A stretch of 64,000 nt of DNA from an uncultured Candidatus Saccharibacteria bacterium. GTDB taxonomy: Bacteria > Patescibacteriota > Minisyncoccia > Phycocordibacterales > PALSA-1337. The position numbers and the translations under genes were made by a program. Below are positions 16,057 to 34,383 of the stretch, piece after piece. The DNA lies in NCBI GenBank assembly GCA_964367745.1, contig CAYIYK010000003.1, positions 10,248-74,247 on the forward strand, written 5' to 3'. Numbering within the stretch: position 1 is the first letter of the stretch; every line of letters begins with the position of its first letter. The notes below the pieces were generated by a model, which ran no database searches, was not told the origin of the DNA, and saw only the letters and a list, made by a program, of their open reading frames with translations.

Positions 16057-17364
<1,308 letters not shown>

Positions 17365-20055: not shown

Positions 20056-20724
20056 ATGAAAATCCTGATTATTGAAGACGATGTAGATATTTCCAGTTTC
20101 ATAAAGGACAATCTTACAGAGAGTACATATTCAGTTGAAGTCGCAAAGGATGGACCTGATGGATCATTTCTGGCCAGAACAAATTATCACGATGTTATCA
20201 TAATGGATTATTCACTTCCTTCAAAAGACGGAGTTTTGGTTTGTGAAGAGATAAGATCATCAGGTGTTGAAACACCCATAATATTCCTAACCGTACATAC
20301 AGACGTCAAAAAGAAGGTTAAAGCATTAGAAAAAGGTGCGGATGACTATATGACTAAACCTTTCTCTATCGAAGAGTTAAAAGCGAGGATACAAGCTCTA
20401 GTGCGTAGACCTAGGAAAATCGAAAGTCCTGTACTGATAGTTGGAGACCTAGTTTTGGATACACACAAAAGAACAGTTAGAAGAGGTGAAACACCTATTT
20501 ATCTAACTAGAAAGACTTATGATCTATTGGAATATCTTATGAGGAATAAAGGTATAGTGCTTTCAAGGGGATCTATAATGGAATATGTATGGAACTCAGA
20601 TAGTGATCCATTCTCAAATACCATAGAAGCACATATCCTAAACCTCAGAAAGAAAATCAATGTTAGAGGTAAAAAGGATATACTAAAGAATATTCCAGGT
20701 AGAGGTTATATTATGGGGTCCTAA
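20056..20724 (+). CDS. OmpR/PhoB-family response regulator (receiver plus winged helix); no kinase nearby
   Basis: MKILIIEDD, IIMDYSLPSKDG, YMTKPF and a C-terminal wHTH (LTRKTYDLLEYLMRN ... GRGYIM). Confidence 0.9.
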   Translation: MKILIIEDDVDISSFIKDNLTESTYSVEVAKDGPDGSFLARTNYHDVIIMDYSLPSKDGVLVCEEIRSSGVETPIIFLTVHTDVKKKVKALEKGADDYMTKPFSIEELKARIQALVRRPRKIESPVLIVGDLVLDTHKRTVRRGETPIYLTRKTYDLLEYLMRNKGIVLSRGSIMEYVWNSDSDPFSNTIEAHILNLRKKINVRGKKDILKNIPGRGYIMGS

Positions 20725-22957
20725 ACTTACCTTCTTCTATTTGCTTTATAGCCTCATCTACTTGAGACTTTATAAGTGGGAATCTTTCTTTTGCTTTCTT
20801 TAGAAGTTCAATCGCTTGGTATTCTTGTTTACTCAATAGATAAACATAAGCTAGAGATGAATATACTTCTTGATTGTCTTGATCTTTAGCTAATATCTTC
20901 TTATATATTTCAATAGCTTTATCGTACTGTTTTGACAATACATAAGCATTTATAACTCTTGGATCGCTGAATACTTCGAAATCATCTCCAAATAGCTTCT
21001 TCGCTTTTACTTCTTCACCTGCCGTTATAAGAGCTGTAACGTAAGTAGTCTTGGCGATTGGATTGTCTGTTGCTGATTGATACGCTTTGTCTAATATCTC
21101 AACTGCTTCTTTATTTTTACCGATATTTAGATAGTTGACGGCTAGTTCAAATATTATACTTTGCTTGTTTGGAGAAAGTTCATTTGCTTTTTCAAGTAGT
21201 GGTGTAGCTGTATTAAAATCTCTTATAGTATCATAATAACTTCCACCAATAATATATATTCTTGCATCATTCGGAGTTTTCTTTATTTGATTTTCTATTT
21301 CTTTCTTTGCCAAATCGTAGAATGCAGCCTTTTTATCTTGTTGCATTTGTGGATTTTGTATTACATTTGCTGAACAATTTAATAGTTGCTCAACCGACTC
21401 TTGATTTGCAACTGTCTGTCTTAGTTTGAATATTTTTTCAAATGGTACTACTGATACTGTTTGAGGATTTGAACAAGCTATAAGTGCATTTATAAGTCCT
21501 GTATTCGCTTGTATAGCGCGCACATTCACAAAATACATTGAAGTAATGAATAAGATAACAACAACAGGTACATATACATAATCTCTTACTGTTTCAGCAT
21601 CTTCAGATATTGATTTGCTGTAATTTTTAAATATAAATAAATCTTTATTCTTTCTTAATGAATGAACAAAAGCGAGCAATGTAAAGAACATTACATAACT
21701 TGTTTGATTGTCGAATACGAATACATTGTGTATTGCATATCCTACCAATAGACCGATAAGTATAGATTTTTCACCAATAGTTTTTTCACTTTTAATGATA
21801 AAGATTAGAGAGATTAAATATAGAGCTAGATACGCAACTAATCCTAGTATTCCTCCGGCAACAAACCAATCTAGGAAAACACTGTGTGCTCGATCAAACC
21901 ATTGCTCATGTCTCCACATTTCAGGATTGTAATGTGAATTGAATATATAGTTAAAGTTCTCTTGCCCAACTCCGATAATTGCTGTCTTTGGGCTCTCTGT
22001 AATTCCCTTTATAGCCATAGGCCAAATAAATCTTCTTGCTTGAGTCTTTGTATCTGAAATAGATATAGAAGCCAATCTTCCCAATACTTCATTCTTTTGA
22101 ATCCAACTAGCATTTCTATTGAAATAAAATAGTGTACCGATAACAACTACTAGTAGAATAACTGAACCAGAAACTACTCTACTTATATTTGATTGACCAC
22201 TACTCTTTCTACCAAAAATTGTATAAATAGCACATGAAGCAATAATAGCAATCGTCCAACCTATGATAGTTCCTCGAGTTGCTGTTTGAAACATTATAAA
22301 AGAGAAAAATGCTGCGGCAATAGCATATGAATAGAACAAATGCTTCTTTGCAAAATAACTTATAGCCAAATATCCCGCAATAAATGCATTAAATAACATA
22401 TAAACCGCCATGTATGCAGAGTTACCTAGAGATGCATCGACTCTACTTCCTTGATGTGTTTCTGCCCAACCGAAAAACTGTGTTAGACCGTAAAGTGCAG
22501 TTATAAATCCAGAAACAATTACAACATTGAAAAACTTATGCCAACTCTCTTTTGTCTTAAGTACTGAAGATAGAACCATGAAATAACCCCAAAGGTGTAT
22601 TATCATCAACCAACCTTCCATTCTTTCGAAGTTTGACCAAATACTTCTAAGTGGATTTAGACCAGCTAAGTCAGCAATCAGAGCAATAAGAGTAAATATA
22701 CCTATAGAAATAGATATTGCATTGCATCGCGGAAGAACACTTCTATCTGTTCCGACAACACTAGTGCCTCTTTCTCTGAAAACAAGAATCAGCCATAGAG
22801 CAAAGACAATTTCAACAATTATTCTAAAAGCGAATCCTTTACCAGTGATGAATGGAAAGAATAAAGAATTAACGACGTAAGTTGGGATAAATGGGATTAC
22901 TGCTAAACCGATAATAATTGCGTATTTGATTAAAGTATTTATTGTTGCATTGTTCAT
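20711..22957 (-). CDS. O-antigen-ligase-like (Wzy_C) polytopic membrane protein with a C-terminal TPR domain
   Basis: 748 aa. About 12 TM helices include the Wzy_C-like block MFQTATRGTIIGW. The C-terminal ~270 aa carry TPR-like repeats (AFYDLAKK, ANELSPNK, AYQSATDN, IEIYKKILAKDQDN). Confidence 0.8.
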   Translation of the reverse strand: MNNATINTLIKYAIIIGLAVIPFIPTYVVNSLFFPFITGKGFAFRIIVEIVFALWLILVFRERGTSVVGTDRSVLPRCNAISISIGIFTLIALIADLAGLNPLRSIWSNFERMEGWLMIIHLWGYFMVLSSVLKTKESWHKFFNVVIVSGFITALYGLTQFFGWAETHQGSRVDASLGNSAYMAVYMLFNAFIAGYLAISYFAKKHLFYSYAIAAAFFSFIMFQTATRGTIIGWTIAIIASCAIYTIFGRKSSGQSNISRVVSGSVILLVVVIGTLFYFNRNASWIQKNEVLGRLASISISDTKTQARRFIWPMAIKGITESPKTAIIGVGQENFNYIFNSHYNPEMWRHEQWFDRAHSVFLDWFVAGGILGLVAYLALYLISLIFIIKSEKTIGEKSILIGLLVGYAIHNVFVFDNQTSYVMFFTLLAFVHSLRKNKDLFIFKNYSKSISEDAETVRDYVYVPVVVILFITSMYFVNVRAIQANTGLINALIACSNPQTVSVVPFEKIFKLRQTVANQESVEQLLNCSANVIQNPQMQQDKKAAFYDLAKKEIENQIKKTPNDARIYIIGGSYYDTIRDFNTATPLLEKANELSPNKQSIIFELAVNYLNIGKNKEAVEILDKAYQSATDNPIAKTTYVTALITAGEEVKAKKLFGDDFEVFSDPRVINAYVLSKQYDKAIEIYKKILAKDQDNQEVYSSLAYVYLLSKQEYQAIELLKKAKERFPLIKSQVDEAIKQIEEGKFRTP

Positions 22958-22992: not shown

Positions 22993-23940
22993 CTATTGAA
23001 ATTTCTTTAATTTATTGGCTATAAATATATCAGTATCTCTTCTAGATTCATAAGTCATACCTCCTGTATGTGGAGCGATGATTACATTTGAATATTCTTT
23101 TGCAAACTTCACTAATGGATGATTCTTGCAACTATTTTTTGTAAATAGAATCTCACCATCTAGAACGTCAGCTGTATAACCGGCAATCTTTTTTTGCTTT
23201 ATCATAGTCATCAAATCACCTTCATGAACTATTTTGCCTCTTGAAGTATTTATAAGATACGCAGTTTTCTTCATAAGACTCATAGTCTTTTTATTGAAAA
23301 GGAATTCTGTTTCTGGATTCAAATGTACGTGTATAGAAATAAAATCACTTTGTTTTATAAGCTCTTCGAAACTAACTTTTTTCCAATTTAGATTTGATGA
23401 TTCAACTTTTGGATCAGTGAATAGAACTTTCATACCCAAAGCCTCTCCATATCTTGCCATCCATTTTCCAAGTCTACCAAGTCCAACAACTCCCAATGTC
23501 TGACCATTCAGTGAATGCCCTTTGAACTTTTCTCTATTCCATTCCCCCTTTAGAACTGATTGAGTTGAACTAGGAATATGTCTTGAAGAAGATATGAGTA
23601 ATCCCAAAGCTAGTTCAGCAGTGCCAGTAATAGTATTTAGGAAATCATCTTCACCCTTTAGACTTAGAACTTTTATACCCTTTTCCTCAGCGTATTTTAA
23701 ATCGATATGATCCAAACCAGTTGTTGCGGTAACAAGGAACTTTAGATTTTTAGCTTTTGATAGGACTTCACTATTAAAGTTCAATCCCAAACCACAAACT
23801 ACTACATCATATTTTTCTATCTTTTTTAATAGTTCTTGATTTGTAGGTATAACATAATCAACCTTACCTAGAATGTTTAGAATCTTTTTTGCTTCAGGGT
23901 CGAAATCTTTACCGATTGTATTTAGTATTTTGTAGGCCAT
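22993..23940 (-). CDS. D-isomer-specific 2-hydroxyacid dehydrogenase family protein
   Basis: The NAD-binding motif is GVVGLGRLGKWMARYGEALGMKV. INTSRG and IIAPHTGG (catalytic His region) are also present. Confidence 0.85.
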   Translation of the reverse strand: MAYKILNTIGKDFDPEAKKILNILGKVDYVIPTNQELLKKIEKYDVVVCGLGLNFNSEVLSKAKNLKFLVTATTGLDHIDLKYAEEKGIKVLSLKGEDDFLNTITGTAELALGLLISSSRHIPSSTQSVLKGEWNREKFKGHSLNGQTLGVVGLGRLGKWMARYGEALGMKVLFTDPKVESSNLNWKKVSFEELIKQSDFISIHVHLNPETEFLFNKKTMSLMKKTAYLINTSRGKIVHEGDLMTMIKQKKIAGYTADVLDGEILFTKNSCKNHPLVKFAKEYSNVIIAPHTGGMTYESRRDTDIFIANKLKKFQ

Positions 23941-23978: not shown

Positions 23979-24422
23979 TTAAACCTTCGGCACCTTTATT
24001 ATAACCAACCTAGCTTTCGTAGAAGTCTTATGTTGATGTGGCTCTCCAGCAGGAATCCATAACCAATCTCCAGGTTTCATCACAACTTCTGTTCCACCCT
24101 TTATTTCTTTTGCTTTCCATTCCCTATCATCTATACTCCCATCAGCATTCTTTTTTACCCAAGGGTCTACCATTTCTCCTCCATAGATAAAGATAACTTC
24201 TCCTTCAAGACAAAACCATAGATCAGCTTCATGCTTGTGTATCTCTGCTTCATTTGAAATATTTATATCCTCCAATATATTCATAGGAACTTTATTCAAA
24301 GCAGAAAAAGCTTTTAGAGGTTCCAAAAGTTTTTTTGTTGGCGTGTCGGCACTAGGACTTGATAGAGTACTATCGATTAAATCTTTACTGATAAAAGCAC
24401 AATTTGATTTATTATTTTCCAT
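23979..24422 (-). CDS. Cupin-domain protein
   Basis: The two cupin motifs are HKHEADLWFCLEGEV and GDWLWIPAGEPHQH. Confidence 0.7.
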   Translation of the reverse strand: MENNKSNCAFISKDLIDSTLSSPSADTPTKKLLEPLKAFSALNKVPMNILEDINISNEAEIHKHEADLWFCLEGEVIFIYGGEMVDPWVKKNADGSIDDREWKAKEIKGGTEVVMKPGDWLWIPAGEPHQHKTSTKARLVIIKVPKV

Positions 24423-24431
24423 TTAATTTAA

Positions 24432-26312
24432 TTAAAATTTAAATCCTTTTTTCTTTAATTCTTTTAACATGTACTCTGTGATAATCCAATCAAGTGGATA
24501 GTCTATATCTATAGATCTCTCTTTTGGTACTATATACCCTGCAATCTTATCTCCATATAACCTCTCTTCTTTCATAATCAAATCTCTTCTCATACAATAT
24601 ATTGCTGCACTTCTCTTGTATGCTACAGGTAGATCTTGTCTTCTTGTACCTTCTACTTCAGGAACAGAATATGCACTGATGAAGTCACCTTCTAATTTTT
24701 TAATCTTAATTGGATTTACATTACTTGGTACTTCAACTATTGATACTGCACTATCTGCTTTTGTATCTATAAGTTTTTGAATTGTTCCATCGATATCGTC
24801 TATAGTTCTAAAAGGTGAAGTTGGCTGAAGAATAACTACATAGTCGATAGTGATATTATTTTTCTTTTCATAAAAATCTATTGCATGTTGCATTACAGGA
24901 AGATGTGGAGTTGAATCTAGAGCCAATTCTTTTGGTCTCATAAAAGGTACATCTGCACCATACTTCTTACACACATCGGCAATCTCTTTGTCATCTGTTG
25001 AAACGATAAGATGATTTATCAATTTACTTTTCTTTGCAGCATCGATTGTATATGCAATAAGAGGTTTATTGCCAAGTTTCTTTATATTCTTACCCGGAAT
25101 ACCTTTTGACCCTCCGCGAGCTGTAATAACGCCAAGGACGTTTGGAGTTCTGTATTCCCTATCTACATGTTCTTCTGTAAGCGGTTCAAATTTCTTTATA
25201 TCTTTTATTATTTTTTTATCCAAAATATCATGGAAAAGATTCGAGAAAATTCCATTTAGATGAAGTCTTGGTCTCATAGCGTAAACCATATCACTCGTGA
25301 TTATTGTTCCAGCTTTAATATCTCTTGAAGCAACGAGTGTTTTGTTGAAATAAGGTCTAAACTTATTTTGTGCACCTTCCAATTCTTTTTCCTTTTGACC
25401 GTAGAAAATATTTGTATCTATTTTCTTATATTCATTTTTCTTAATACCAGAGACCAATTGTTTCATTTCTTCTGGAGTTACTGAAGCTTTATGGTCTGAA
25501 CCCCAAAGGCCTCGGTCTAGAGAAAAGTGTTTCTCTATAACCTGCGCACCCATTTTTACTGCAGCTAAAGGAATAGTATTATCTCCAACTGAATGATCAG
25601 AAAAACCGATGATCGCTTGAGGGTATTTTTCTCTAAAATATTCTATAGTAGAAAGGTTAAAAGCTTCTGGAGGACATGGATATTCACTAACGCAATATAG
25701 AATAATAATTGGTGACCCACGCTTTGTTATATAGTCAACAACGTCATCCAACTCTTTGTGACTAACCATTCCTGTTGAAATGATTATTGGTTTTTGTGTC
25801 TTTGTAATAAAGTCCAAAAGAACATGATCCTGAACATCACCAGAACCTACTTTCCAGAAAGGTACATCTAGATTCTCAAGCTTAACCGCTGCCATTCTAG
25901 ACATCGGAGTTGAGAAGAATATAATTCCCTTTTTTTCTGAATATCTTTTTATCTCTTTGAAGAATTCTATAGGTGCTTCTTCAGTATTTCTTTTAACCCA
26001 AGAATATCTATCACTGCCTTTGAAGTGCGGAGAAACTACATTTATATTTGCTTGTTCATCTTCAACTTCATGAGTTTGAAATTTCACAGCATGTGCACCA
26101 GCTTTTACTGCTTCGTCGATAAGCTTTTTTGCATTTTTAATATAGACTTTTAGAGGTTGAGACTCTTGTGTTTGTATAAAATTCTTACCGATTTCAGCAA
26201 TAACAAAAACTTTATCTTTTGATATGATCTTAGAGATAGCGTGAGGTTTCACTATTTTTGAATTTTTGTTCTTACTGGCTTTAGAAGATTTAACAGACTT
26301 TTTTGTTTTCAT
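24432..26312 (-). CDS. Fused NeuB-like nonulosonic (sialic) acid synthase plus NeuA-like CMP-acid cytidylyltransferase
   Basis: NeuB blocks: VIAEIGKNF, AVKFQTH, PIIISTGM, VSEYPCPPEAFNL, GFSDHS and VIEKHFSLDR. A SAF-like segment (RDIKAGTIITSDMV) follows. From about aa 393 the sequence VLGVITARGGSKGIPGKNIKKLGNKPLIAYTI is typical of acylneuraminate cytidylyltransferases. Confidence 0.85.
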   Translation of the reverse strand: MKTKKSVKSSKASKNKNSKIVKPHAISKIISKDKVFVIAEIGKNFIQTQESQPLKVYIKNAKKLIDEAVKAGAHAVKFQTHEVEDEQANINVVSPHFKGSDRYSWVKRNTEEAPIEFFKEIKRYSEKKGIIFFSTPMSRMAAVKLENLDVPFWKVGSGDVQDHVLLDFITKTQKPIIISTGMVSHKELDDVVDYITKRGSPIIILYCVSEYPCPPEAFNLSTIEYFREKYPQAIIGFSDHSVGDNTIPLAAVKMGAQVIEKHFSLDRGLWGSDHKASVTPEEMKQLVSGIKKNEYKKIDTNIFYGQKEKELEGAQNKFRPYFNKTLVASRDIKAGTIITSDMVYAMRPRLHLNGIFSNLFHDILDKKIIKDIKKFEPLTEEHVDREYRTPNVLGVITARGGSKGIPGKNIKKLGNKPLIAYTIDAAKKSKLINHLIVSTDDKEIADVCKKYGADVPFMRPKELALDSTPHLPVMQHAIDFYEKKNNITIDYVVILQPTSPFRTIDDIDGTIQKLIDTKADSAVSIVEVPSNVNPIKIKKLEGDFISAYSVPEVEGTRRQDLPVAYKRSAAIYCMRRDLIMKEERLYGDKIAGYIVPKERSIDIDYPLDWIITEYMLKELKKKGFKF

Positions 26313-26348: not shown

Positions 26349-26379
26349 AAAAAAAATCCACCCAGTAAAACCAGGTGGA
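26349..26379 (-). terminator. Intrinsic terminator after the GC-rich methyltransferase
   Basis: On the minus strand the stem is TCCACC..GGTGGA (26374..26379 / 26357..26362), followed by T8 (the A-run 26349..26356 on the + strand). Confidence 0.6.
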
Positions 26380-26408: not shown

Positions 26409-27347
26409 TCAAAGCCTGCGAGCGGTGACCACAACCGACGGGTGGTATGCGGTAAAGTTGAGGAGATTCTGGTCTGCCTCAAAAACGCTACGGATTCCAA
26501 TACCAACAATCTTGAGCTTGTCCTCAATCGGAAGCTTGTCGAGCGGTTCCCAACGGCACCAAGTGGCCCAGGCATTGCGAATGAAATCGACGATTCGACT
26601 CCCAACAACAGGAACGAGGGTTTCATTCACACGGAAGATCTCGAAACCATTTTGCTCGAGAGCAGACTTGAGATCAACAAGCGAGAATGCCTTTGCTTTG
26701 GGTGCCCAGAGATTTTCGCGAGTGAAATCAGGATACTTTGACCGAACATAATTGTAAGCTGCATCGTGCGCAATCCTATAAAGCGGATGCGAGAGTTCGG
26801 TTGTGATCTGATCCGGCCCCGGCTCAGACTTTGACCGGAAATCGTGCAAATTGCACTTCCAATCCGAATAATTGGACGGACCGAAGTCAAAACTGAGAGT
26901 TCCACGAACCTTGAGGCAAGAACTGATTGCTTTCAAGGAAGCATCGAGGGTATCCCGCAAAAGATGAAACATCTGACAACAGACAGCGGCGTCATGAAGA
27001 CCTACAACATGCCGATCCAGAAATTCCGCTTTCATTGTGTAAGCATTCACCCTCGGATTACCCATCAAATTGAGGAGAAGGAAATGCATCATGCTTTCAT
27101 TCGGCTCAACAGCCGAAACGAGCGCCTTCGTCCTCTTGAGAATAACTGCTGTACTGACACCAGTGCCGGCGCCAATCTCCAACACTGAATTGATTCCATT
27201 TTTGTTGGCTTGAATCGCCTCACTAACAACGAATTCAGCCATTTCAGTGTAGTATTTGTCACGACCATTGAAGGCCGAGTATGCTGCGCCGACATTCCCT
27301 TCGAAGAGTTTCGAACCGAGGATTGCACTAACATTACTTGTACTCAT
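26409..27347 (-). CDS. Class I SAM-dependent methyltransferase of foreign composition
   Basis: 312 aa. SAM motif I is VLEIGAGTGVST. The gene is about 50% GC and uses GC-rich codons, unlike its neighbours. Confidence 0.8.
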   Translation of the reverse strand: MSTSNVSAILGSKLFEGNVGAAYSAFNGRDKYYTEMAEFVVSEAIQANKNGINSVLEIGAGTGVSTAVILKRTKALVSAVEPNESMMHFLLLNLMGNPRVNAYTMKAEFLDRHVVGLHDAAVCCQMFHLLRDTLDASLKAISSCLKVRGTLSFDFGPSNYSDWKCNLHDFRSKSEPGPDQITTELSHPLYRIAHDAAYNYVRSKYPDFTRENLWAPKAKAFSLVDLKSALEQNGFEIFRVNETLVPVVGSRIVDFIRNAWATWCRWEPLDKLPIEDKLKIVGIGIRSVFEADQNLLNFTAYHPSVVVTARRL

Positions 27348-27523: not shown

Positions 27524-28477
27524 ATGACAGCAAAAAATGTTGGAAATTGGCAAAAATGGGCCTTCTTGGAAGGAATAACAAGGACCTTATCAAGGACTCT
27601 ACAAAAAGTTGTTGGTTCCGTATCTAACAACTGGGAGAATACCCTACTAGCTGCCGGCATAATCGGTTTTGTTCAAGTTCTGTCAGCTGTAATCATTACA
27701 AGAAAGACGAAAGAAAAACTTCTGTGTGATCCAGCAGGAATCATCGGCTGTTTGATTTTTGGTCTTATAGCTCTAGTATGTACTGTATTAGGCTTCGCAA
27801 CTTTCCTTTATGGAGGAGATATTACTGTTAGTACTTTTATCATTGCCCTGTCCATCATTCCAAGTATGATAATCGACATCGTCTTCTTCAACTACAAATC
27901 TAGTCGTAGAGAATGGATTGGGATTTTTGTGGCGGTTATAGCTGGTTGGGCAGTTCTAGACTTCCCAAACTTAGCTAGCATGCTTAAGTTGCCTATGTGG
28001 GTAGGCCTTTCATTCATCACCATGATCCTTGTGGCAATAAATCAAGGAATCACACAATCAATCAAAGATATTTCCCCGATGTTCAAAAACTTCTGGGGTG
28101 GTATGGTGGCACTAATACTGTCACCAGTTATCATGATCGTGATTGGCAAAGGTGGATTCTTACTCAGTTTCCCAGATAATAAAGTACTATGGTTTACCTC
28201 AGCTATGATTGGGATCATAGTGATAGCCATATGGTCTTTCAACCTTCTGAGCTACAAGGACGGTGCGAGTATCGCATTAAAAAAACTTGTAGTAAGTAGT
28301 ATTTACTTTATCAGTACCACGTTTCTTGGAAGCATCGTATTTAACGAAGCAATGACTGCTGGGAAAATTATTGCAATCCCTCTTTTTATTATTTCATACT
28401 TCCTTATGAGTAAGGAAGCCTACAATTTCGTACTAGCGAAGCGGATACCGAAGTGGATAAAGTGGATATTGAAGTGA
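27524..28477 (+). CDS. About 10-TM membrane protein, possibly a DMT/EamA-type transporter
   Basis: 317 aa with about 10 hydrophobic helices in two halves. GC is elevated (~45% by hand count). It uses a TGA stop, whereas the native + strand CDS stops I read (4207, 6628, 11114, 12881, 14791, 15987, 17364, 20724) are all TAA. Confidence 0.55.
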   Translation: MTAKNVGNWQKWAFLEGITRTLSRTLQKVVGSVSNNWENTLLAAGIIGFVQVLSAVIITRKTKEKLLCDPAGIIGCLIFGLIALVCTVLGFATFLYGGDITVSTFIIALSIIPSMIIDIVFFNYKSSRREWIGIFVAVIAGWAVLDFPNLASMLKLPMWVGLSFITMILVAINQGITQSIKDISPMFKNFWGGMVALILSPVIMIVIGKGGFLLSFPDNKVLWFTSAMIGIIVIAIWSFNLLSYKDGASIALKKLVVSSIYFISTTFLGSIVFNEAMTAGKIIAIPLFIISYFLMSKEAYNFVLAKRIPKWIKWILK

Positions 28478-28507: not shown

Positions 28508-28537
28508 CCCTCACGTAAAAAGCGTGGGGGTCTTTTT
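28508..28537 (+). terminator. Intrinsic terminator after the island transporter
   Basis: An 8-bp stem CCCTCACG (28508..28515) / CGTGGGGG (28523..28530) with one G-U pair is followed by TCTTTTT. It overlaps the neuC stop codon. Confidence 0.65.
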
Positions 28538-29693
28538 ATTCAACAAAAGTCTTTTGAGTATAAAGAGGTACAGTAGCTATAACCTCTGCAATCTTTTTAC
28601 TTGTACCTTCTGCAAAATATAGACTTGATGATTCGTATCTGCCTTTTTTAACTTGTTTCTCTATTGCTTTCTTTATAGCTTTAATATCATGGTCTACAGT
28701 TACTACATTTTCTGCACTCAATCTTTTGAATTGTCTATTACCAATATTCACCACAGGCAAACCCATAAAAGAAGATTCCTTTATTCCAGCTGATGAATTC
28801 CCTATCAAACATAGACTGTTATTCAATAGCCAAATAAAATCCTTTGGACCCATATATCGCATGAAGCGTATTTTATGTCCTTTAACTTCATCTTTAAAAA
28901 TTCGAAGCTCATGTGATATATCTTCTGCACCGGCATCAGCATTTGGCCAAAACCAAAGTGTTGGAATCTTTAGACTATGTACAGCATCAAGGATTTTCTT
29001 TGTATTTTCATGTACATGCTTCACATCCATAATATCAGGATGATACATAACTATTAGATATCCTTTCTTTAGATCAAAAAGGGCCCCACTTCCTGTTTTC
29101 TTTATATCGAATTTATGTTTATTTTTTGCTAATTTTTGTACAACTTCTATTTCTGGACTACCAAAATTGAAAACGTGAGATTCTCTTTCTCCAAGTCTCA
29201 ATACTCTTTTTCTTGCTGGTTCATTTGTTGTAAAGTGAATATGAGAAAGTTTTGTGATAGCGTGTCTTACACTTTCATCTATTGATCCAGATACATCACC
29301 ACCTTCTATGTGTGCGATAGGTATAGATAAATATGCAGCTGCAATTGTAGCTGATAGAACTTCAAATCTATCACCTCTTACCACAACGACATCAGGTTTA
29401 ATCTGATTAAAAAGTGTAGTGAATTCTATTATTCCTAGTCCTGTTGTTTTTGCTTTTACGATTGTATCATTCCCTTCTAGATTGAAATGTAGTTCGTATA
29501 GCTTGTTATATCCGTCTTCCGTCAAAAGTTTTCTTATATCAGCAAGTTTTGAAGTATAACGAGACAATAAAGCTGTACCTCCAACTATTATATGTAGGTC
29601 AATATCCTTTCTTTTCTTTAGTTCTTCTAGAATAAGAAAGTTACGACTATAGTGTATGAAACTTGTAATAACAAAGCAGACTTTTCTCTTCAT
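28536..29693 (-). CDS. neuC: Hydrolysing UDP-N-acetylglucosamine 2-epimerase (NeuC-type)
   Basis: 385 aa. PDVVVVRGDRFE and IAHIEGGDVSGSIDESVRHAITKLSHIHF match the NeuC / hydrolysing-epimerase pattern. Confidence 0.8.
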   Translation of the reverse strand: MKRKVCFVITSFIHYSRNFLILEELKKRKDIDLHIIVGGTALLSRYTSKLADIRKLLTEDGYNKLYELHFNLEGNDTIVKAKTTGLGIIEFTTLFNQIKPDVVVVRGDRFEVLSATIAAAYLSIPIAHIEGGDVSGSIDESVRHAITKLSHIHFTTNEPARKRVLRLGERESHVFNFGSPEIEVVQKLAKNKHKFDIKKTGSGALFDLKKGYLIVMYHPDIMDVKHVHENTKKILDAVHSLKIPTLWFWPNADAGAEDISHELRIFKDEVKGHKIRFMRYMGPKDFIWLLNNSLCLIGNSSAGIKESSFMGLPVVNIGNRQFKRLSAENVVTVDHDIKAIKKAIEKQVKKGRYESSSLYFAEGTSKKIAEVIATVPLYTQKTFVE

Positions 29694-29696: not shown

Positions 29697-30680
29697 CTAG
29701 CTAATATGCAGTATTTTTCGTAAAAATGCAAATCTATTTGAATACTTTATTATGTATATTATTTTAACCAAGATTGGTGATAGTGATACGCGCGCTTTAA
29801 GATAAATATTCTTCGGAATTTCTATATCTTTTGATAATGTATCCTTCCTTGCAACCAAACGTATATGGTGGGTATTCAATCCATCTTGTTTTTGCTTCTT
29901 TATTTGTTCTTGCTTTTTACCTTCATCAACATCCATATAGACGATTACGAAACCTGCTTTTTTACACATTAAAGAAAGTGTCTCTGGTGTAAACATATAG
30001 ACATGGTCAATCTGCACTCCAGACTGAAGCTTCCCCATTCTTCTAACTTGATGTCTCCAGTTTTTCACTGCAAGGAAAATATGACCACCTGGTTCCAGTG
30101 CTTCATGTGACCAATTTAGGAATTTCATTGGATCTAAAAGATGGTTCAAACTTTGAACACAAAGAATATTTTTTACTTTATTCTTAATATCCATATTCAC
30201 ATCTTCAAAAAGCCCGCGAATAGTCTTTACGCCTTTTGATTCTGCATAACCCGATTCTTCAAGCGAAGGTTCAATACCTAGCAGTTCTAGATTTTTCCTA
30301 GATTCCCTCATACCAAAAAGGATTCCACCAGTACTTGAACCAACGTCGATAGTAAGTCCGTCTTTTACATATTTACCCATATAACTGACTATAGCCTTAC
30401 CGAATCTTCTAGCATTCTCGAAGTTCTTCTCTAGATCAGAATTGTATTCACGATTCTTTATACTAGCTCTATCTTGTCTATAAAAAGACATATAGTATTC
30501 ATCATAATCTTTTGCAGTCATACGTGGGTTAATAAAGACTAGACTGCACTTCTTACACATTACTGTATTTGCTTTGAGATTGTTTACACTTCTTTTAACA
30601 ATTATTTTAAAATCATTTCCACCACAAAGATTACATGCGATGTATTCTAAATTCTTTTTATTATAATCAAATCCTTCCAT
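29697..30680 (-). CDS. Zn-ribbon class I SAM methyltransferase (paralog M1)
   Basis: CNLCGGNDF...CKKCSLVFINPRMT forms a 4-Cys ribbon. The SAM motif is TIDVGSSTGG. QIDHVYMFTPETL is shared with M2. Confidence 0.8.
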   Translation of the reverse strand: MEGFDYNKKNLEYIACNLCGGNDFKIIVKRSVNNLKANTVMCKKCSLVFINPRMTAKDYDEYYMSFYRQDRASIKNREYNSDLEKNFENARRFGKAIVSYMGKYVKDGLTIDVGSSTGGILFGMRESRKNLELLGIEPSLEESGYAESKGVKTIRGLFEDVNMDIKNKVKNILCVQSLNHLLDPMKFLNWSHEALEPGGHIFLAVKNWRHQVRRMGKLQSGVQIDHVYMFTPETLSLMCKKAGFVIVYMDVDEGKKQEQIKKQKQDGLNTHHIRLVARKDTLSKDIEIPKNIYLKARVSLSPILVKIIYIIKYSNRFAFLRKILHIS

Positions 30681-30681: not shown

Positions 30682-32040
30682 TTATTTAATTAAATTAATT
30701 ATATAATCTGCAATTCTCTTTCCTGATAAACCGTCTGTATAACTTGTCTGTTCTTTTACCAAGATCTCTCTTTCTTTACTCTTTACTGATGGATCATCAA
30801 GATATTTATTTATTGAATCCAATAACTCTTGTTTGCTATTAACTAGATCGATAGCACCGGTCTTTAATGCATTCTTATAATGCCAAGTTCTATAGTATTG
30901 TACAGGAGATTTCAATAATTTTGGAATTATATTTATTTCAAAATTTATATTTATTACAGGTTTATTAAAAATACTTGCATCGATACTAATACTTGAAGCA
31001 TAGCAAACCAAAACAGACATATGATAAAGAGTATCCTGCAAATGTTCTAGATCTGCTTTATTCATATCCCAATCTACACCTCTTTTTGTACCAAAACGTA
31101 TACCAGGCTTATCATATTTTAGATCTGGTCTCTTTGATATTTCTTCTTCATCAACAAAGTCATTTGGTTGGAATCGGACCAATAATTCACATTCGTATTT
31201 CAATTCATTTGAGTGAATAGTTTTTTGCAAAAGGTCGATTATATCCCAATCTGCAGAACTGAACGCTCTCCCCATTGGAGCGTATACTATCAATTTCTTA
31301 TCACTTGATATTTTTATTTTATTAAAAAATTCTTCTCTTAAAATAGGTTTCCTTGTGTAGAAGAAATCGTATTGTGGCAGACCGCTGATAAAAATATCTT
31401 CCGATTTCATTTCATTCAAATCAATCATCTCCTTTTTTACGATATCGTTAAAAACTATAGCTTTATCAGGTAATAATCTTAAAATGCATCTTGATGTAAC
31501 TTTGTCCCAAGAGTTTATATAGCCTATCGTTTTTATTTTTCTTTTTTTTGCTTCTCTTAAAAGATTGATTTCTATTTCTTCAAATAGATGTGCGGTGAAA
31601 ACAAGATCTGGTGAATATTTATCAAAATATTCACTATATGTATTGTCTTTTATTAAAATAAAATCCAAATATCGTACGATTCTTCTTATCACAGGCCAAG
31701 CCAAAATATAGTTCGATACTTTACCAAAATAGTATCCGAAAAATCTTCCTTCATATTCACTTACCATTTTCCTTTTTAAATCTGTTGTTTCAGTTCTAAG
31801 TAAAGTGAATTTCATCTTTGAGAAAAACCCATCAAACATTGGTACAGATTTTTGCTCGACAAATTCAAATACTATTCTTGGATCATTGAATTCATTTTTA
31901 TAATAATCAACTTTTTGTTGTGATTTTGTAAATAGAACAATTTTAATATCTTTATTTAAAAGAAGATTTTCCAAAATCGGTGTTCGTAGAATATTTTTTA
32001 CTTCTACACCCTCAAAGATTGTTACAAATATTGTCTTCAT
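30682..32040 (-). CDS. Uncharacterised GT-B-like transferase (paralog P1)
   Basis: 452 aa. It shares blocks with P2 and P3: IKTIGYINSWDKVTS, LLVRFQPND and FNKPVININF. The overall layout is that of a two-Rossmann-domain GT-B. I did not recognise the family. Confidence 0.6.
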   Translation of the reverse strand: MKTIFVTIFEGVEVKNILRTPILENLLLNKDIKIVLFTKSQQKVDYYKNEFNDPRIVFEFVEQKSVPMFDGFFSKMKFTLLRTETTDLKRKMVSEYEGRFFGYYFGKVSNYILAWPVIRRIVRYLDFILIKDNTYSEYFDKYSPDLVFTAHLFEEIEINLLREAKKRKIKTIGYINSWDKVTSRCILRLLPDKAIVFNDIVKKEMIDLNEMKSEDIFISGLPQYDFFYTRKPILREEFFNKIKISSDKKLIVYAPMGRAFSSADWDIIDLLQKTIHSNELKYECELLVRFQPNDFVDEEEISKRPDLKYDKPGIRFGTKRGVDWDMNKADLEHLQDTLYHMSVLVCYASSISIDASIFNKPVININFEINIIPKLLKSPVQYYRTWHYKNALKTGAIDLVNSKQELLDSINKYLDDPSVKSKEREILVKEQTSYTDGLSGKRIADYIINLIK

Positions 32041-33365
32041 TTATTTATTGATTCTAGTATTGCATTAAAAAGTCTTTCAGTATTTTTGCCATCCAAAAAT
32101 CCAGTTTCCATCTCTGCTAGTTTCTTTCTTTTATCTTTATCCAGACTAGGATTTTTAACGTATTCTTCTACATAGTCTTTAAATTGACGCATAGATTCAG
32201 CCAGCTTCACACCTCCACTCTCTATTACTGGAATAAAATTGTTATAATCATAATATCTTCTTATACTATCAAAATATTCCCTTTTTTCATGTCCGTCAAA
32301 ACCAAAAAGGATTATTGGTTTATCCATATATGCAGAATCCAAAACTAAAGTTGATGGTGAGCTGATAACCAATTCTGACCAGAACAATGTATGAGCAAGA
32401 TGTATATCATCATCTTTATCGATCTCTGTAATTTTTATATTATCAAATTTAGGTTTTGCTCTGTCATACATAACCTTAATATTTGGAAACTTCGGACTAT
32501 TCTCCAATTCTCTAACATAATCTCCAGGTGGAAGTCTGACTAGAAGTTGATAATCATTTGGTAAAGTCTTATCCAAAATATCTACAATATCTCTGTCTAC
32601 AGTATTTTTTCTCAAATATCGATCACCTAGAGGTATAAATAAAGCCAGCTTTTTATTCTGATCACCACCTATTTTTTCTATAAATTCTTTTCTATTTGTA
32701 AATACATTCTTTTTATAATCATCATAGTGTGGAATTCCGACAATAGATATTATTGATTCATTTATTCCTTGAAGATCTTTTGCTTCATCTTTAATGATAT
32801 TGTTCCAAACAAAAAGTCTATTCGGAATCGTTCGAATGATACCTTTTGAAGTAAGATTGTCCCAAGAACGAACCATACCGATAGTCTTTATACCTGAGGA
32901 ATTACCTTCATTTAAAATCGCTATATCGATTTCGCTTTGAATATCGGTAGCGAATACGCAATCAGGTTTATACTGCTCAAATAATTTATCAAATTTTTTA
33001 TTTTTATAACTTACTCTTTCCAAGAATCTTACGAATTTATGCCCGATTTTATTTGATAATAAATAAGTTAAATACATTCCACTCCCTTTCATCTCTGTCT
33101 TCCTTTTTATATAAAGAGTTTTTGTATTTAATGCTGTTAGCGAAAGATACTTTAATAAATTTTCTCTTTTAGCATTTTTAAATTCTATTCCTTCAACAAC
33201 TACCCCATCTCTTTCAAAACTTTCTTTAAAAAAACTCTCTTTATTTTTTGGAGCAATTATTACAACTTTTATTTCATTCTTAACAAAGAGATCCAAAATT
33301 CCAGATGAAAGAATATTTCTTGATATTAGAGGATGGCAACTAGTTATAAAAATTGTCTTTTTCAT
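32037..33365 (-). CDS. Uncharacterised GT-B-like transferase (paralog P2)
   Basis: 442 aa with IKTIGMVRSWDNLTS, LLVRLPPGD and MDKPIILFGF. It overlaps P1 by 4 nt. Confidence 0.6.
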   Translation of the reverse strand: MKKTIFITSCHPLISRNILSSGILDLFVKNEIKVVIIAPKNKESFFKESFERDGVVVEGIEFKNAKRENLLKYLSLTALNTKTLYIKRKTEMKGSGMYLTYLLSNKIGHKFVRFLERVSYKNKKFDKLFEQYKPDCVFATDIQSEIDIAILNEGNSSGIKTIGMVRSWDNLTSKGIIRTIPNRLFVWNNIIKDEAKDLQGINESIISIVGIPHYDDYKKNVFTNRKEFIEKIGGDQNKKLALFIPLGDRYLRKNTVDRDIVDILDKTLPNDYQLLVRLPPGDYVRELENSPKFPNIKVMYDRAKPKFDNIKITEIDKDDDIHLAHTLFWSELVISSPSTLVLDSAYMDKPIILFGFDGHEKREYFDSIRRYYDYNNFIPVIESGGVKLAESMRQFKDYVEEYVKNPSLDKDKRKKLAEMETGFLDGKNTERLFNAILESINK

Positions 33366-34312: not shown

Positions 34313-34383
34313 TTTATGATAAACAAGTATATCACAACAAAATATTGCTTCAATTAAGATTAAATTCTGATATACTGTCTCAA

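What the first reader, a model, noticed from the sequence alone, without database searches (positions are those of the whole stretch)
24432..26312. Single polypeptide fusing nonulosonic acid synthase (NeuB) and CMP-acid synthetase (NeuA); with NeuC this gives a complete three-step CMP-sialic-acid-type pathway
The 626-aa ORF carries all NeuB blocks plus a SAF-like segment in aa ~35-375. A full acylneuraminate cytidylyltransferase domain begins at VLGVITARGGSKGIPGKNIKKLG. NeuC (28536..29693) supplies the hydrolysing 2-epimerase.

Established pathway: UDP-GlcNAc -> ManNAc (NeuC) -> Neu5Ac (NeuB, using PEP) -> CMP-Neu5Ac (NeuA).

The window contains no 4,6-dehydratase, aminotransferase or N-acetyltransferase set as needed for legionaminic or pseudaminic acid. 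A Neu5Ac- or Kdn-type product is therefore the simplest reading, although those genes could lie elsewhere in the genome.

The first NeuB block reads AEIGKNF rather than the usual AEIGxNHxG. The protein also has a Lys-rich ~30-aa N-terminal extension. A synthase-activase fusion would channel the free acid directly to the CMP-activated form.
Basis: partly seen in the sequence, partly recalled or inferred. Interest (0 to 1): 0.5.

Follow-up and report, generated by a model that had tools for sequence, protein, structure and literature searches.

The report
Fused sialic-acid-type synthase and activase gene
In one lineage of tiny candidate-phyla-radiation (CPR) bacteria, two neighbouring genes that make and CMP-activate a sialic-acid-like sugar have recently merged into one functional gene; the merger is real but such fusions are not rare, and the more interesting points are that the synthase belongs to an uncharacterised deep branch and always travels with an unexplained dehydrogenase.

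Summary
An uninterrupted 626-aa ORF on the minus strand (24432..26312) carries NeuB + SAF + acylneuraminate cytidylyltransferase domains. NeuC lies at 28536..29693. No dehydratase, aminotransferase or acetyltransferase occurs anywhere in the 64 kb.

The fusion is real and recent. The closest relatives have the same locus with separate, abutting neuB and neuA. Three diverged assemblies share the identical 8-residue junction, with dN/dS about 0.04. No internal start codon could give a separate NeuA.

It is not unusual as a class. At least 56 clusters of reverse-order NeuA>NeuB fusions exist, plus NeuB>NeuC and NeuB>NeuC>NeuA fusions. The window's B>A order is the rare one.

The product type is unresolved. 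The synthase belongs to a deep clade, mostly CPR and DPANN, defined by AEIGKNF plus a 9-residue loop insertion and other sugar-pocket changes. It separates from Neu5Ac, Leg and Pse references with 100% bootstrap and fails the curated NeuB and PseI cut-offs. Context favours a ManNAc-derived sugar: NeuC and NeuA in 34/36 loci, Leg/Pse acetyltransferases in 0/36.

A 2-hydroxyacid dehydrogenase is a conserved, unexplained fourth partner (28/36 loci, always on the same strand).

The parts
24432..26312 (-). Fused neuB-neuA gene, 626 aa: bifunctional nonulosonic-acid synthase / CMP-nonulosonate synthetase
   Evidence: Uninterrupted ORF. Pfam NeuB + SAF + CTP_transf_3. The same fusion is present in L001 and L019. 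dN/dS is 0.04.
26223..26312 (-). Lys-rich N-terminal tail (aa 1-30), variable in length among relatives
   Evidence: dN/dS is 0.21 for aa 1-25 against 0.02 for the NeuB core. Relatives have shorter basic tails. A conserved TAGGAT motif lies upstream of the ATG.
25164..26222 (-). NeuB TIM-barrel plus SAF domain (aa 31-383), KNF-clade type
   Evidence: TIGR03569 aligns to aa 36-374 at 252 bits, below the cut-off of 400. It aligns to N. meningitidis NeuB 1XUU.
26142..26198 (-). Clade signature AEIGKNF plus a 9-residue insertion in the beta1-alpha1 loop (aa 39-57, AEIGKNFIQTQESQPLKVY)
   Evidence: Exact AEIGKNF occurs in 95 of the 120 best homologues. It is absent from all Neu5Ac, Leg and Pse references, which have AExGxNH with no insertion.
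25140..25163 (-). Fusion linker DREYRTPN (aa 384-391), replacing the ancestral neuB stop codon, spacer and neuA start codon
   Evidence: Sister L006 reads ...AAG AAA TAA c ATG AAT...; the window reads ...GAT AGG GAA TAC AGA.... That is stop TAA to GAA plus a net loss of 1 nt. The peptide is identical in the window, L001 and L019, which differ only synonymously.
24435..25139 (-). CMP-nonulosonate synthetase domain (aa 392-626)
   Evidence: PF02348 at 98 bits. PseF model at 172 bits, below the cut-off of 206. It aligns to V. cholerae and N. meningitidis CMP-NeuAc synthetases, with the ARGGSKG, QPTSP and RRQDLP blocks present. It is 79-83% identical to the standalone NeuA of L006, L007 and L009.
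28536..29693 (-). NeuC-type hydrolysing UDP-GlcNAc 2-epimerase
   Evidence: TIGR03568 at 343 bits against a cut-off of 236; the wecB model scores only 69 bits. It falls in a clade separate from E. coli NeuC and the LegG references, with 100% bootstrap.
22993..23940 (-). D-isomer 2-hydroxyacid dehydrogenase (PGDH / glyoxylate-reductase-like): conserved fourth partner of the module, role unknown
   Evidence: Pfam 2-Hacid_dh_C at 168 bits. Nearest solved structures are P. horikoshii PGDH 1WWK, human PHGDH, McyI and glyoxylate reductases. It is present in 28/36 well-flanked KNF loci and on the same strand as NeuB in 28/28. It lies directly after the fused genes in L099 and L100. GxGxxG, NTxR and PHxGG are invariant.
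23979..24422 (-). Small cupin protein between the fusion and the dehydrogenase (accessory; found in few loci)
   Evidence: Cupin_2 at 39 bits. Weak, sub-threshold hits to YhcH/DUF386 and to N-acetylneuraminate anomerase. Present in only 7/66 KNF loci.
30682..33365 (-). Two TagF/TagB-like GT-B transferases (30682-32040 and 32037-33365): candidate CMP-NulO transferases or polymerases
   Evidence: PF04464 at 42 and 34 bits; weak BFO_1060-family hit at 53 bits, below the cut-off of 200. Present in 24/36 KNF loci. T. forsythia NulO transferases are TagB-like (PMC5420450). The HP and D/E-D/E-G sialyl motifs were not found.
20711..22957 (-). Wzy_C (O-antigen-ligase / O-oligosaccharyltransferase-type) membrane protein with C-terminal TPR repeats; last gene of the unit
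   Evidence: Pfam Wzy_C at 61 bits plus TPR repeats. Syntenic in L006, L007 and L009. Present in 19/36 loci.
29697..30680 (-). SAM methyltransferase, syntenic with relatives
   Evidence: Methyltransf_23 at 51 bits. Conserved position in L006, L007 and L009.
33365..34432 (-). SAM methyltransferase, syntenic with relatives
   Evidence: Methyltransf_23 at 54 bits; synteny shown.
26409..27347 (-). Extra SAM methyltransferase, specific to this strain, inserted just upstream of the fusion
   Evidence: Methyltransferase Pfam hits. No homologue in L019 or the other close relatives. L019 has only about 1 kb where the window has 2.2 kb.
26357..26379 (-). Intrinsic-terminator-like hairpin (10-bp stem, T8 tail) between the extra methyltransferase and the fused gene
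   Evidence: Ten such sites were found against 3.5 expected in the scanned region.
27524..28477 (+). EamA-family transporter, divergently oriented between neuC and the fusion; also present in L007/L008
   Evidence: Pfam EamA at 30 bits; synteny.
38978..40366 (-). Wzx-type flippase (Polysacc_synt) of the same glycan locus
   Evidence: Pfam hit; syntenic in L006 and L009.

Best explanation
This is a real and evolutionarily recent in-frame fusion of two neighbouring genes, neuB and neuA, in one species-level lineage of Patescibacteria (CPR).

How it arose (inferred from comparison with the sister locus): the neuB stop codon changed from TAA to GAA, and a net loss of one nucleotide put neuA in frame. 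This left an 8-residue linker.

What it does (inferred from homology): the product is a bifunctional enzyme. Its N-terminal TIM-barrel/SAF half condenses phosphoenolpyruvate with a hexosamine-type aldose to give a nine-carbon 2-keto-3-deoxy acid. Its C-terminal half activates that acid with CTP to the CMP-sugar.

Where it sits: it works with the NeuC-type hydrolysing epimerase two genes upstream (UDP-GlcNAc to ManNAc). The three form a self-contained module inside a conserved CPR surface-glycan locus. That locus also encodes TagB/TagF-like transferases, SAM methyltransferases, a flippase and a Wzy_C/TPR ligase-like protein.

Product: the most economical guess is a ManNAc-derived, Neu5Ac-type sugar, probably modified further. 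This is not established, because the synthase belongs to a deep uncharacterised 'KNF' clade.

Effect of the fusion: it mainly fixes 1:1 stoichiometry and co-localisation of two consecutive steps. True substrate channelling is unproven.

Status of each step: the fusion, its conservation, selection on it and the synteny are shown. The catalytic activities, substrate, product and downstream use are inferred.
For: Fusion and domain content.

Ancestral state: the closest relatives (74-79% identical NeuB) have an identical locus order but separate neuB and neuA, with a 4-bp overlap, a 1-bp gap or a 9-bp gap. The window is sister to unfused P0003 with 100% bootstrap.

Mutational path at the junction.

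Conservation of the fusion: it is present in three diverged assemblies. dS is 0.40 and dN/dS is 0.04 overall (NeuB 0.02, NeuA 0.05); the linker has 2 synonymous and 0 non-synonymous changes.

No separate NeuA: there is no in-frame ATG, GTG or TTG between aa 370 and 431, which is past the CTP-binding ARGGSKG loop. NeuA activity must therefore come from the fused chain.

Active site: E25, E234, H215, H236, K53, Q55, K129, S132, S154, S213, Y186, D247 and R314 equivalents are all conserved. E134 is Asp, a change reported as common in environmental, archaeal and eukaryotic synthases (PMC8208679).

Module: NeuC and NeuA lie within 10 kb of the synthase in 34/36 well-flanked KNF loci. Four fusion architectures exist among the same three enzymes: B>A, A>B, B>C and B>C>A.

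No Leg/Pse upstream set: none in the window. LegH, NeuD and PseG homologues occur in 0/36 loci. DegT occurs in 6/36, at a median distance above 8 kb.
Against: - No biochemical data exist for any member of the clade.
- The synthase scores below the curated NeuB (252 against 400) and PseI (214 against 340) cut-offs, and the cytidylyltransferase below PseF (172 against 206).
- Clade-specific changes all lie on the sugar side of the pocket: F112M, N184S, F288Y, a Trp before the GxD motif, a 2-residue insertion after R314 and a 9-residue beta1-loop insertion. The aldose substrate could therefore differ from ManNAc.
- A tightly linked 2-hydroxyacid dehydrogenase has no place in the classical three-step pathway.
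- One JGI source names a clade member a legionaminate synthase (P0074).
- Only 64-70 kb of the genome was seen, so upstream Leg/Pse genes elsewhere cannot be excluded.
Confidence: 0.8

Rival explanations
1. The module makes a previously undescribed or modified nonulosonic (or related ulosonic) acid rather than plain Neu5Ac. On this view the KNF-type synthase, its own clade of NeuC-like epimerase and the tightly linked 2-hydroxyacid dehydrogenase form a four-enzyme pathway. The dehydrogenase would act on the alpha-keto acid or its CMP derivative, or would supply a glycolate, glycerate or lactate substituent.
For: - The KNF clade separates from all Neu5Ac, Leg and Pse references at 100% bootstrap, and so does its partner epimerase clade.
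- Substitutions and insertions are concentrated on the sugar side of the pocket, while PEP and metal ligands are intact.
- The 2-HADH is present in 28/36 loci, on the same strand in 28/28, and overlaps or abuts the fused genes in L099 and L100. Its catalytic Arg and His are invariant.
- The locus carries several SAM methyltransferases and a PhyH-like dioxygenase.
Against: - No chemistry is known that links 2-HADH enzymes to NulO pathways, and the literature searches found none.
- The dehydrogenase also co-occurs with the TagF-like and Wzy_C genes (22/28 and 18/28), so it could serve the glycan rather than the NulO.
- 8/36 loci lack it.
- Deep divergence alone does not prove a new substrate.
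Confidence: 0.25
2. The product is a legionaminic- or pseudaminic-type 5,7-diamino sugar. NeuC would act as LegG, the fusion as LegI-LegF, and the dehydratase, aminotransferase and acetyltransferase genes would lie elsewhere in the genome.
For: - The curated NeuC and NeuB models also cover LegG and LegI. The context-defined Sulfitobacter Leg locus is annotated neuC/neuB.
- The cytidylyltransferase half is slightly closer to the PseF and LegF references (36-41% identity) than to E. coli NeuA (33%), and its best NCBIfam hit is PseF.
- One JGI annotation calls P0074 a legionaminate synthase.
- 5 of 66 KNF loci have both an SDR and a DegT gene within 10 kb.
Against: - There are no such genes in 64 kb of a small genome or in five syntenic relatives' loci.
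- LegH, NeuD and PseG homologues occur in 0/36 loci. DegT genes are rare and distant.
- The synthase does not group with the LegI or PseI references.
- Leg and Pse genes are normally clustered, as in L013, L015 and L017.
Confidence: 0.12
3. The fusion is an artefact: a sequencing or assembly frameshift, or a pseudogene-like read-through, and the organism really has two genes.
For: The closest unfused relatives differ at the junction by only a stop-codon change and one nucleotide.
Against: - The junction peptide is identical in three independently assembled, diverged genomes (8% nucleotide divergence, dS about 0.4), with only synonymous differences in the linker.
- There is no homopolymer longer than 3 nt at the junction.
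- Both halves are under strong purifying selection.
- No start codon is available for a separate NeuA.
Confidence: 0.02

Closest known systems
Bacterial sialic acid pathway NeuC / NeuB / NeuA (E. coli K1 neuDBACES; N. meningitidis SiaA/SiaC/SiaB)
   Same: The same three enzyme families in one locus. NeuB metal, PEP and catalytic residues are conserved. NeuC passes the curated hydrolysing-epimerase model. The cytidylyltransferase has the ARGGSKG, QPTSP and RRQDLP blocks.
   Different: - Only 28-33% identity to E. coli, N. meningitidis and the other reference enzymes.
- neuB and neuA are fused.
- The synthase has KNF plus a 9-residue insertion and an altered sugar pocket, and fails the NeuB equivalog cut-off.
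- There is no NeuD, NeuS or Kps machinery. Instead the locus has TagF-like transferases, methyltransferases, a 2-HADH and a Wzy_C/TPR protein.
Reverse-order NeuA>NeuB fusion proteins (about 550-630 aa) found in sequence databases, including the archaeal P0017/P0018/P0020 and the Patescibacteria protein MFA4995849.1 (P0123)
   Same: A single chain carrying both the CMP-NulO synthetase and the NulO synthase. The archaeal examples share the KNF signature and sit directly after an Epimerase_2 gene.
   Different: - The domain order is opposite, so these are independent fusion events.
- Most of the 56 clusters have the canonical NH motif.
- None is biochemically characterised as far as I know (my own knowledge) or as far as the searched literature shows.
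P0127 (594 aa, metagenomic): the only other NeuB>NeuA same-order fusion among the 150 best-scoring cluster representatives
   Same: The same domain order, and a 2-hydroxyacid dehydrogenase gene follows immediately.
   Different: It has the canonical AEIGLNHNG motif without the insertion, is 38% identical and has a longer linker. It is an independent fusion outside the KNF clade.
Other natural fusions in NulO pathways: mammalian GNE (epimerase-kinase), Leptospira interrogans NeuB-phosphatase, E. coli/GBS NeuA-esterase
   Same: Consecutive or accessory steps of sialic acid biosynthesis joined in one polypeptide. Such fusions have been used as evidence of pathway type (PMC3438082; the E. coli NeuA bifunctionality is cited in PMC6137143's reference list).
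   Different: The partner domains differ. None of these joins the synthase to the CMP-activating enzyme.
Tannerella forsythia NulO transferases (BFO_1060 / Tanf_01245 family, TagB-like GT-B)
   Same: The window's two Glyphos_transf (PF04464) ORFs next to the NulO genes are TagB/TagF-like, and one gives a weak BFO_1060-family hit.
   Different: The score is far below the family cut-off (53 against 200). The HP and D/E-D/E-G sialyl motifs were not found.

Membership tests
NeuB / sialic acid synthase superfamily (PF03102 + SAF) | NeuB TIM-barrel domain above the Pfam gathering score | tested here: met
   223.3 bits against a cut-off of 22.1, aa 64-294.
NeuB / sialic acid synthase superfamily (PF03102 + SAF) | C-terminal SAF (antifreeze-like) domain carrying the essential Arg314 equivalent | tested here: met
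   SAF at 27.4 bits against a cut-off of 21. The Arg is conserved in MRPR, but it is followed by a clade-specific 2-residue insertion.
NeuB / sialic acid synthase superfamily (PF03102 + SAF) | Metal ligands His215/His236, PEP-binding Lys53/Lys129/Ser132/Ser154/Ser213, catalytic Glu25/Glu134/Glu234 | tested here: met
   All are conserved except E134, which is Asp. PMC8208679 reports this change in about 29% of environmental synthases and in archaeal and eukaryotic ones.
NeuB / sialic acid synthase superfamily (PF03102 + SAF) | First block AE[IAL]GxNHxG without an insertion | tested here: not met
   The block reads AEIGKNF and is followed by a 9-residue insertion. This is clade-wide.
N-acetylneuraminate / legionaminate synthase equivalog (NCBIfam TIGR03569 NeuB_NnaB) | Score at or above the curated cut-off | tested here: not met
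   252.4 bits against a cut-off of 399.65. PGAP names clade members only 'N-acetylneuraminate synthase family protein'.
Pseudaminic acid synthase PseI (TIGR03586) | Score at or above the curated cut-off; grouping with PseI | tested here: not met
   214.5 bits against a cut-off of 340.25. It does not group with Klebsiella PseI.
Neu5Ac, Leg or Pse synthase clades (typing in the manner of Lewis et al.) | Phylogenetic placement inside one reference clade | tested here: inconclusive
   The KNF clade is split from all 7 references at 100% bootstrap (NJ, 337 columns, 100 replicates). The reference set is small and the method is NJ, but the placement lies outside all three.
Acylneuraminate cytidylyltransferase (PF02348, CMP-NulO synthetase) | Domain above the gathering score, with the CTP-binding ARGGSKG loop and the QPTSP and RRQDLP blocks | tested here: met
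   97.8 bits against a cut-off of 22.6. The blocks align to V. cholerae 6IFD and N. meningitidis 1EYR.
Pseudaminic acid cytidylyltransferase PseF (TIGR03584) | Score at or above the curated cut-off | tested here: not met
   172.5 bits against a cut-off of 205.7. The NeuA-domain tree is unresolved among the NeuA, LegF and PseF references.
Hydrolysing UDP-GlcNAc 2-epimerase NeuC (TIGR03568; also covers LegG) | Score at or above the curated cut-off and clearly above the non-hydrolysing WecB model | tested here: met
   342.7 bits against a cut-off of 235.9; the wecB model scores 69 bits. It nonetheless forms its own clade apart from E. coli NeuC and LegG.
Legionaminic acid pathway | LegB/PglF dehydratase, LegC/PglE aminotransferase and LegH/PglD acetyltransferase encoded with the synthase | tested here: not met
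   None in the window. LegH occurs in 0/36 related loci and DegT in 6/36. The rest of the genome was not available.
Pseudaminic acid pathway | PseB, PseC, PseH and PseG encoded with the synthase | tested here: not met
   None in the window. PseG occurs in 0/36 loci and PseB-like genes in 3/36.
Animal-type Neu5Ac-9-P route (NANS plus kinase plus phosphatase) | ManNAc kinase and a Neu5Ac-9-P phosphatase (HAD) linked to the synthase | tested here: not met
   No kinase or HAD phosphatase lies in the locus. The only phosphatase-like ORFs are a histidine-phosphatase/PGM-like gene and a PAP2 gene outside the unit.
Bifunctional synthase/activase activity | One chain catalyses both PEP condensation and CTP-dependent activation | not testable with these tools
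   This needs an enzyme assay. Indirect support: both halves are under purifying selection and there is no alternative NeuA start.
Bacterial sialyltransferase motifs in the TagF-like neighbours | D/E-D/E-G and HP motifs | tested here: not met
   Neither motif is found at the expected C-terminal positions in ORFs 30682-32040 and 32037-33365.

The most novel reading that the evidence does not exclude
The KNF-type synthase, its private clade of NeuC-like epimerase, the cytidylyltransferase and the tightly coupled 2-hydroxyacid dehydrogenase constitute a fourth, so far undescribed nonulosonic-acid pathway. It would be distinct from the Neu5Ac, legionaminic and pseudaminic routes, would be widespread in CPR bacteria and DPANN archaea, and would decorate their cell surface (for example pilins or S-layer, via the Wzy_C/TPR protein) with a new or specially modified nine-carbon acid. 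That sugar could matter for episymbiotic attachment.
Probability: 0.25. Interest if true: 0.7.

Novelty: new variant of a known kind. Interest (0 to 1): 0.38.

Why it matters
The fusion is a modest finding. It is a clean, datable example of two consecutive pathway genes merging through a stop-codon change and a one-nucleotide shift. Together with three other fusion architectures among the same enzymes, it is strong 'Rosetta-stone' evidence that NeuC, the KNF-type NeuB and NeuA work as one module.

The wider value is that it points to a large, unstudied clade of sialic-acid-type synthases found mostly in ultra-small CPR bacteria and DPANN archaea. These organisms live attached to host cells, and their surface chemistry is almost unknown. 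If they coat themselves with a sialic-acid-like sugar, possibly a new one made with the help of a dehydrogenase, that would bear on how they recognise or evade hosts. It would also extend the nonulosonic-acid typing scheme.

The naturally bifunctional enzyme could also be a compact one-protein catalyst for CMP-sugar synthesis.

Tried and rejected
1. Typing by curated HMMs and by phylogeny gave no assignment. The enzyme lies below all equivalog cut-offs and in a clade outside all references. The NeuA-domain tree was unresolved, with deep-node bootstraps of 9-44%.

2. Plasmid hit H39 was expected to be the E. coli K1 neu cluster. It turned out to be an unannotated 4.9-Mb 'plasmid' record carrying a different 515-aa protein with a NeuB-like domain, so it was not usable as a reference. 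The true K1 cluster was then taken from UTI89.

3. I looked for sialyltransferase HP and D/E-D/E-G motifs in the TagF-like neighbours and found none.

4. Literature searches found nothing for NulO pathways in CPR/Patescibacteria/DPANN, for natural NeuB-NeuA fusions, or for 2-hydroxyacid dehydrogenases in NulO clusters. The large NulO-synthase phylogeny paper mentions neither CPR nor fusions.

5. I considered that the annotated start is wrong and the Lys-rich tail untranslated. This is rejected as unlikely, because a conserved SD-like TAGGAT precedes the ATG here and in relatives, and relatives also have basic tails.

6. The animal-type 9-phosphate route is rejected: no kinase or HAD phosphatase is present.

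7. Structure prediction was not run. The tools return no coordinates, so the position of the insertion relative to the substrate could not have been examined.


Full report
**1. Observation**

The interval 24432..26312 is an uninterrupted ATG-initiated ORF of 626 codons.

Pfam finds NeuB (aa 64-294, 223 bits), SAF (aa 326-383) and CTP_transf_3 (aa 394-612, 98 bits). The cytidylyltransferase half begins at VLGVITARGGSKG, as stated. The ORF at 28536..29693 (-) passes the curated NeuC model (343 bits against 236).

I scanned essentially every ORF of at least 100 aa in the window. None is an SDR 4,6-dehydratase, a DegT-type aminotransferase or a hexapeptide acetyltransferase. The factual content of the finding is therefore correct.

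**2. Is the fusion real?**

The organism is a member of the Patescibacteria (CPR): the window has 33% G+C, and all close homologues come from Paceibacteria/Parcubacteria-type MAGs.

The closest relatives carry NeuB proteins 74-79% identical to the window's. They have the same locus order: methyltransferase, two TagF-like genes, methyltransferase, neuC, (EamA), neuB, neuA, (cupin), 2-hydroxyacid dehydrogenase, Wzy_C/TPR. In them, neuB and neuA are separate genes that overlap by 4 bp or are 1-9 bp apart. In a bootstrapped tree the window's synthase is sister to one of these unfused proteins (100%).

At the junction the sister locus reads ...AAG AAA TAA c ATG AAT AAG.... The window reads ...GAT AGG GAA TAC AGA ACT.... 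The stop codon has become GAA, and a net loss of one nucleotide puts neuA in frame, leaving the linker DREYRTPN.

The same fused ORF with an identical junction peptide occurs in two further assemblies. L001 is an ENA contig. L019 is a GTDB representative MAG at 92% nucleotide identity over the gene, with no gaps, and 85-91% in the flanks.

Between the window and L001, dS is 0.40 and dN/dS is 0.04 overall (NeuB part 0.02, NeuA part 0.05). The linker shows two synonymous and no non-synonymous changes. There is no homopolymer longer than 3 nt at the junction.

No in-frame ATG, GTG or TTG occurs between aa 370 and 431, which is already past the CTP-binding loop. NeuA activity in this lineage must therefore come from the fused chain.

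An artefact is effectively excluded. The fusion is young, restricted to one species-level lineage, and maintained by selection.

**3. How unusual is the architecture?**

In a survey of 80 species-representative genomes carrying relatives of the synthase, only L019 has the NeuB>NeuA fusion. Two loci have NeuB>NeuC fusions.

An exhaustive search of 1.84 billion cluster representatives with the full-length protein gave a different picture for the class as a whole. Among the 150 best hits:

| Architecture | Clusters | Note |
|---|---|---|
| NeuA>NeuB (reverse order) | 56 | mostly canonical-motif synthases |
| NeuB>NeuC | 2 | KNF-type |
| NeuB>NeuA (window's order) | 1 other (P0127) | unrelated, canonical-motif |

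A 986-aa NeuB>NeuC>NeuA triple fusion also exists (P0010). Archaeal (DPANN-like) NeuA>NeuB fusions sit directly behind an Epimerase_2 gene.

A single-chain synthase/activase is therefore a recurrent natural solution. It is not something I could find described in the searched literature. The window's domain order is the rare one.

The four architectures among the same three enzymes are good evidence that they form one functional module.

**4. What kind of synthase is it?**

All residues that bind the metal and PEP in N. meningitidis NeuB are conserved: H215, H236, K53, K129, S132, S154 and S213. So are Q55, Y186, D247, R314 and the catalytic E25 and E234. E134 is Asp, a change reported as frequent in environmental, archaeal and eukaryotic synthases (PMC8208679). 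The enzyme looks active.

Together with a 9-residue insertion in the beta1-alpha1 loop, it marks a whole clade. Exact AEIGKNF is present in 95 of the 120 best homologues and in 66 of the 80 surveyed genomes in close variants. It is absent from E. coli and N. meningitidis NeuB, from two context-defined LegI and from a PseI.

The clade has further fixed differences, all on the sugar side of the pocket: F112M, N184S, F288Y, a Trp two residues before the GxD motif, and a 2-residue insertion after R314.

The domain is only 28-33% identical to each reference class. It falls below the curated NeuB (252 against 400) and PseI (214 against 340) cut-offs. It separates from all references with 100% bootstrap. 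The epimerases linked to KNF synthases likewise form their own clade, apart from E. coli NeuC and LegG (100%). The cytidylyltransferase tree is unresolved.

This is a fourth deep lineage. It occurs mainly in CPR classes and DPANN archaea, with a few MAGs labelled otherwise.

**5. Context evidence on the product**

I took the 36 KNF loci with at least 5 kb on both sides of the synthase.

| Gene within 10 kb | Loci |
|---|---|
| NeuC | 34/36 (usually adjacent) |
| NeuA | 34/36 (usually adjacent) |
| LegH/NeuD-type acetyltransferase | 0/36 |
| PseG | 0/36 |
| DegT aminotransferase | 6/36 (median distance above 8 kb) |

By contrast, bona fide Leg and Pse loci keep these genes together (L013, L015, L017).

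I put roughly even odds on plain Neu5Ac-type chemistry, given the remodelled pocket.

**6. An overlooked partner**

A D-isomer 2-hydroxyacid dehydrogenase (22993..23940) follows the fusion and a small cupin. Its nearest solved structures are P. horikoshii and human phosphoglycerate dehydrogenases, McyI and glyoxylate reductases.

Homologues are present in 28/36 well-flanked KNF loci and lie on the same strand as the synthase in 28/28. A homologue overlaps, or lies 2 nt from, the fused genes in the independent P0127 and P0010 loci. The NAD-binding motif and the catalytic Arg and His are invariant.

No known NulO pathway uses such an enzyme, and I found no literature on it. It might act on the alpha-keto acid or its CMP derivative. 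It might supply a glycolate, glycerate or lactate substituent. Or it might serve the glycan rather than the sugar, since it also co-occurs with the TagF-like and Wzy_C genes. This remains unexplained and is the main reason to keep a 'new pathway' reading open.

**7. Downstream use (inference)**

The two TagF/TagB-like GT-B proteins (30682..33365) resemble, weakly, the TagB-like NulO transferases shown by knock-out in Tannerella forsythia. They lack the sialyl motifs.

The locus also contains several SAM methyltransferases, a PhyH-like dioxygenase, a Wzx-type flippase and many glycosyltransferases. Its last gene is a Wzy_C/TPR protein of the type found in O-antigen ligases and O-oligosaccharyltransferases. 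Type IV pilus genes lie at 57-64 kb.

This fits assembly of a NulO-containing, methylated surface glycan on a lipid carrier and its transfer to a surface acceptor.

**8. Verdict**

- The fusion is a genuine, recent and selected gene merger that yields a bifunctional enzyme.
- As an architecture it is a variant of something common in sequence space.
- Channelling is unproven.
- The identity of the sugar is open.

The more interesting outcome is the delineation of the KNF clade, with its own epimerase clade and a tightly linked dehydrogenase, in CPR and DPANN organisms.

Noticed in passing
window 22993-23940 (-); also L099 4496-5452, L100 5707-6666: A 2-hydroxyacid dehydrogenase (PGDH / glyoxylate-reductase-like) is a conserved partner of the NeuC/NeuB/NeuA module. 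It is present in 28/36 loci, always on the same strand, and overlaps or abuts independent fusion genes. No known NulO pathway includes such an enzyme, so its role is unexplained.
   Followed up: partly
window 26357-26379 (-) and 26409-27347 (-): A strong terminator-like hairpin (10-bp stem, T8 tail) lies just upstream of the fused gene. It follows a SAM methyltransferase that is absent from L019 and all the close relatives, so this looks like a strain-specific gene insertion with its own terminator. The fusion, cupin, dehydrogenase and Wzy_C genes would then form a separate transcription unit.
   Followed up: partly
window 30682-32040 and 32037-33365 (-): Two adjacent TagF/TagB-like (PF04464) proteins are conserved in 24/36 related loci. 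They are candidate CMP-NulO transferases by analogy with Tannerella forsythia, but they lack the HP and D/E-D/E-G sialyl motifs.
   Followed up: partly
window 20711-22957 (-) and 57496-63996: A 748-aa Wzy_C (O-antigen-ligase / O-oligosaccharyltransferase-type) protein with C-terminal TPR repeats ends the NulO unit. A type IV pilus gene set lies 35 kb away: a pilin with the N-methylation motif, PilC-like, PilT- and PilB-like ATPases, and PilO. Pilin or S-layer glycosylation with the NulO glycan is conceivable.
   Followed up: no
window 23979-24422 (-): A small cupin between the fusion and the dehydrogenase gives weak, sub-threshold hits to YhcH/DUF386 and to N-acetylneuraminate anomerase. It is present in only 7/66 related loci.
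   Followed up: no
window 29697-30680, 33365-34432, 34231-35520 (+), 44600-45879, 35521-36471: The locus has an unusual density of tailoring genes: at least five SAM methyltransferases, a TylF-type O-methyltransferase and a PhyH-like dioxygenase. This suggests a heavily methylated or modified glycan. The + strand ORF 34231-35520 overlaps the preceding gene, so its true start is probably further downstream.
   Followed up: no
L027, L031, L036, L062, L068, L071, L081 (Patescibacteria MAG loci): Several CPR loci carry two full sets of NeuB, NeuA and NeuC within 20 kb. One set has a KNF-type synthase and the other a divergent non-KNF paralogue (27-34% identity). This suggests two different NulO pathways side by side.
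   Followed up: no
L002-L005 (P0018 loci): The archaeal (DPANN-like) NeuA>NeuB fusion sits behind an Epimerase_2 gene and next to a polysaccharide deacetylase and a UDP-sugar dehydrogenase. Its NeuA and NeuC group with a Woesearchaeota MAG (L073) at 100% bootstrap.
   Followed up: partly
L011 (NZ_CP141089.1, 2961898-2976674): A PLSDB 'plasmid' record of E. coli KE47 is 4.9 Mb long, so it is evidently a chromosome, and it is almost unannotated. It carries a 515-aa protein with a C-terminal NeuB-like domain lacking SAF, next to a cytidylyltransferase, an acetyltransferase and an inositol-monophosphatase-like gene.
   Followed up: no
window 53949-55823 (-): A TraG/VirD4-like type IV secretion coupling protein (624 aa) lies between the glycosyltransferase cluster and the pilus genes.
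   Followed up: no
window 16072-17364 (+) and 17897-18610 (-): Enolase (which makes PEP) and a histidine-phosphatase/phosphoglycerate-mutase-like gene lie just downstream of the NulO unit. This is probably ordinary glycolysis, but it is the source of the synthase's co-substrate.
   Followed up: no
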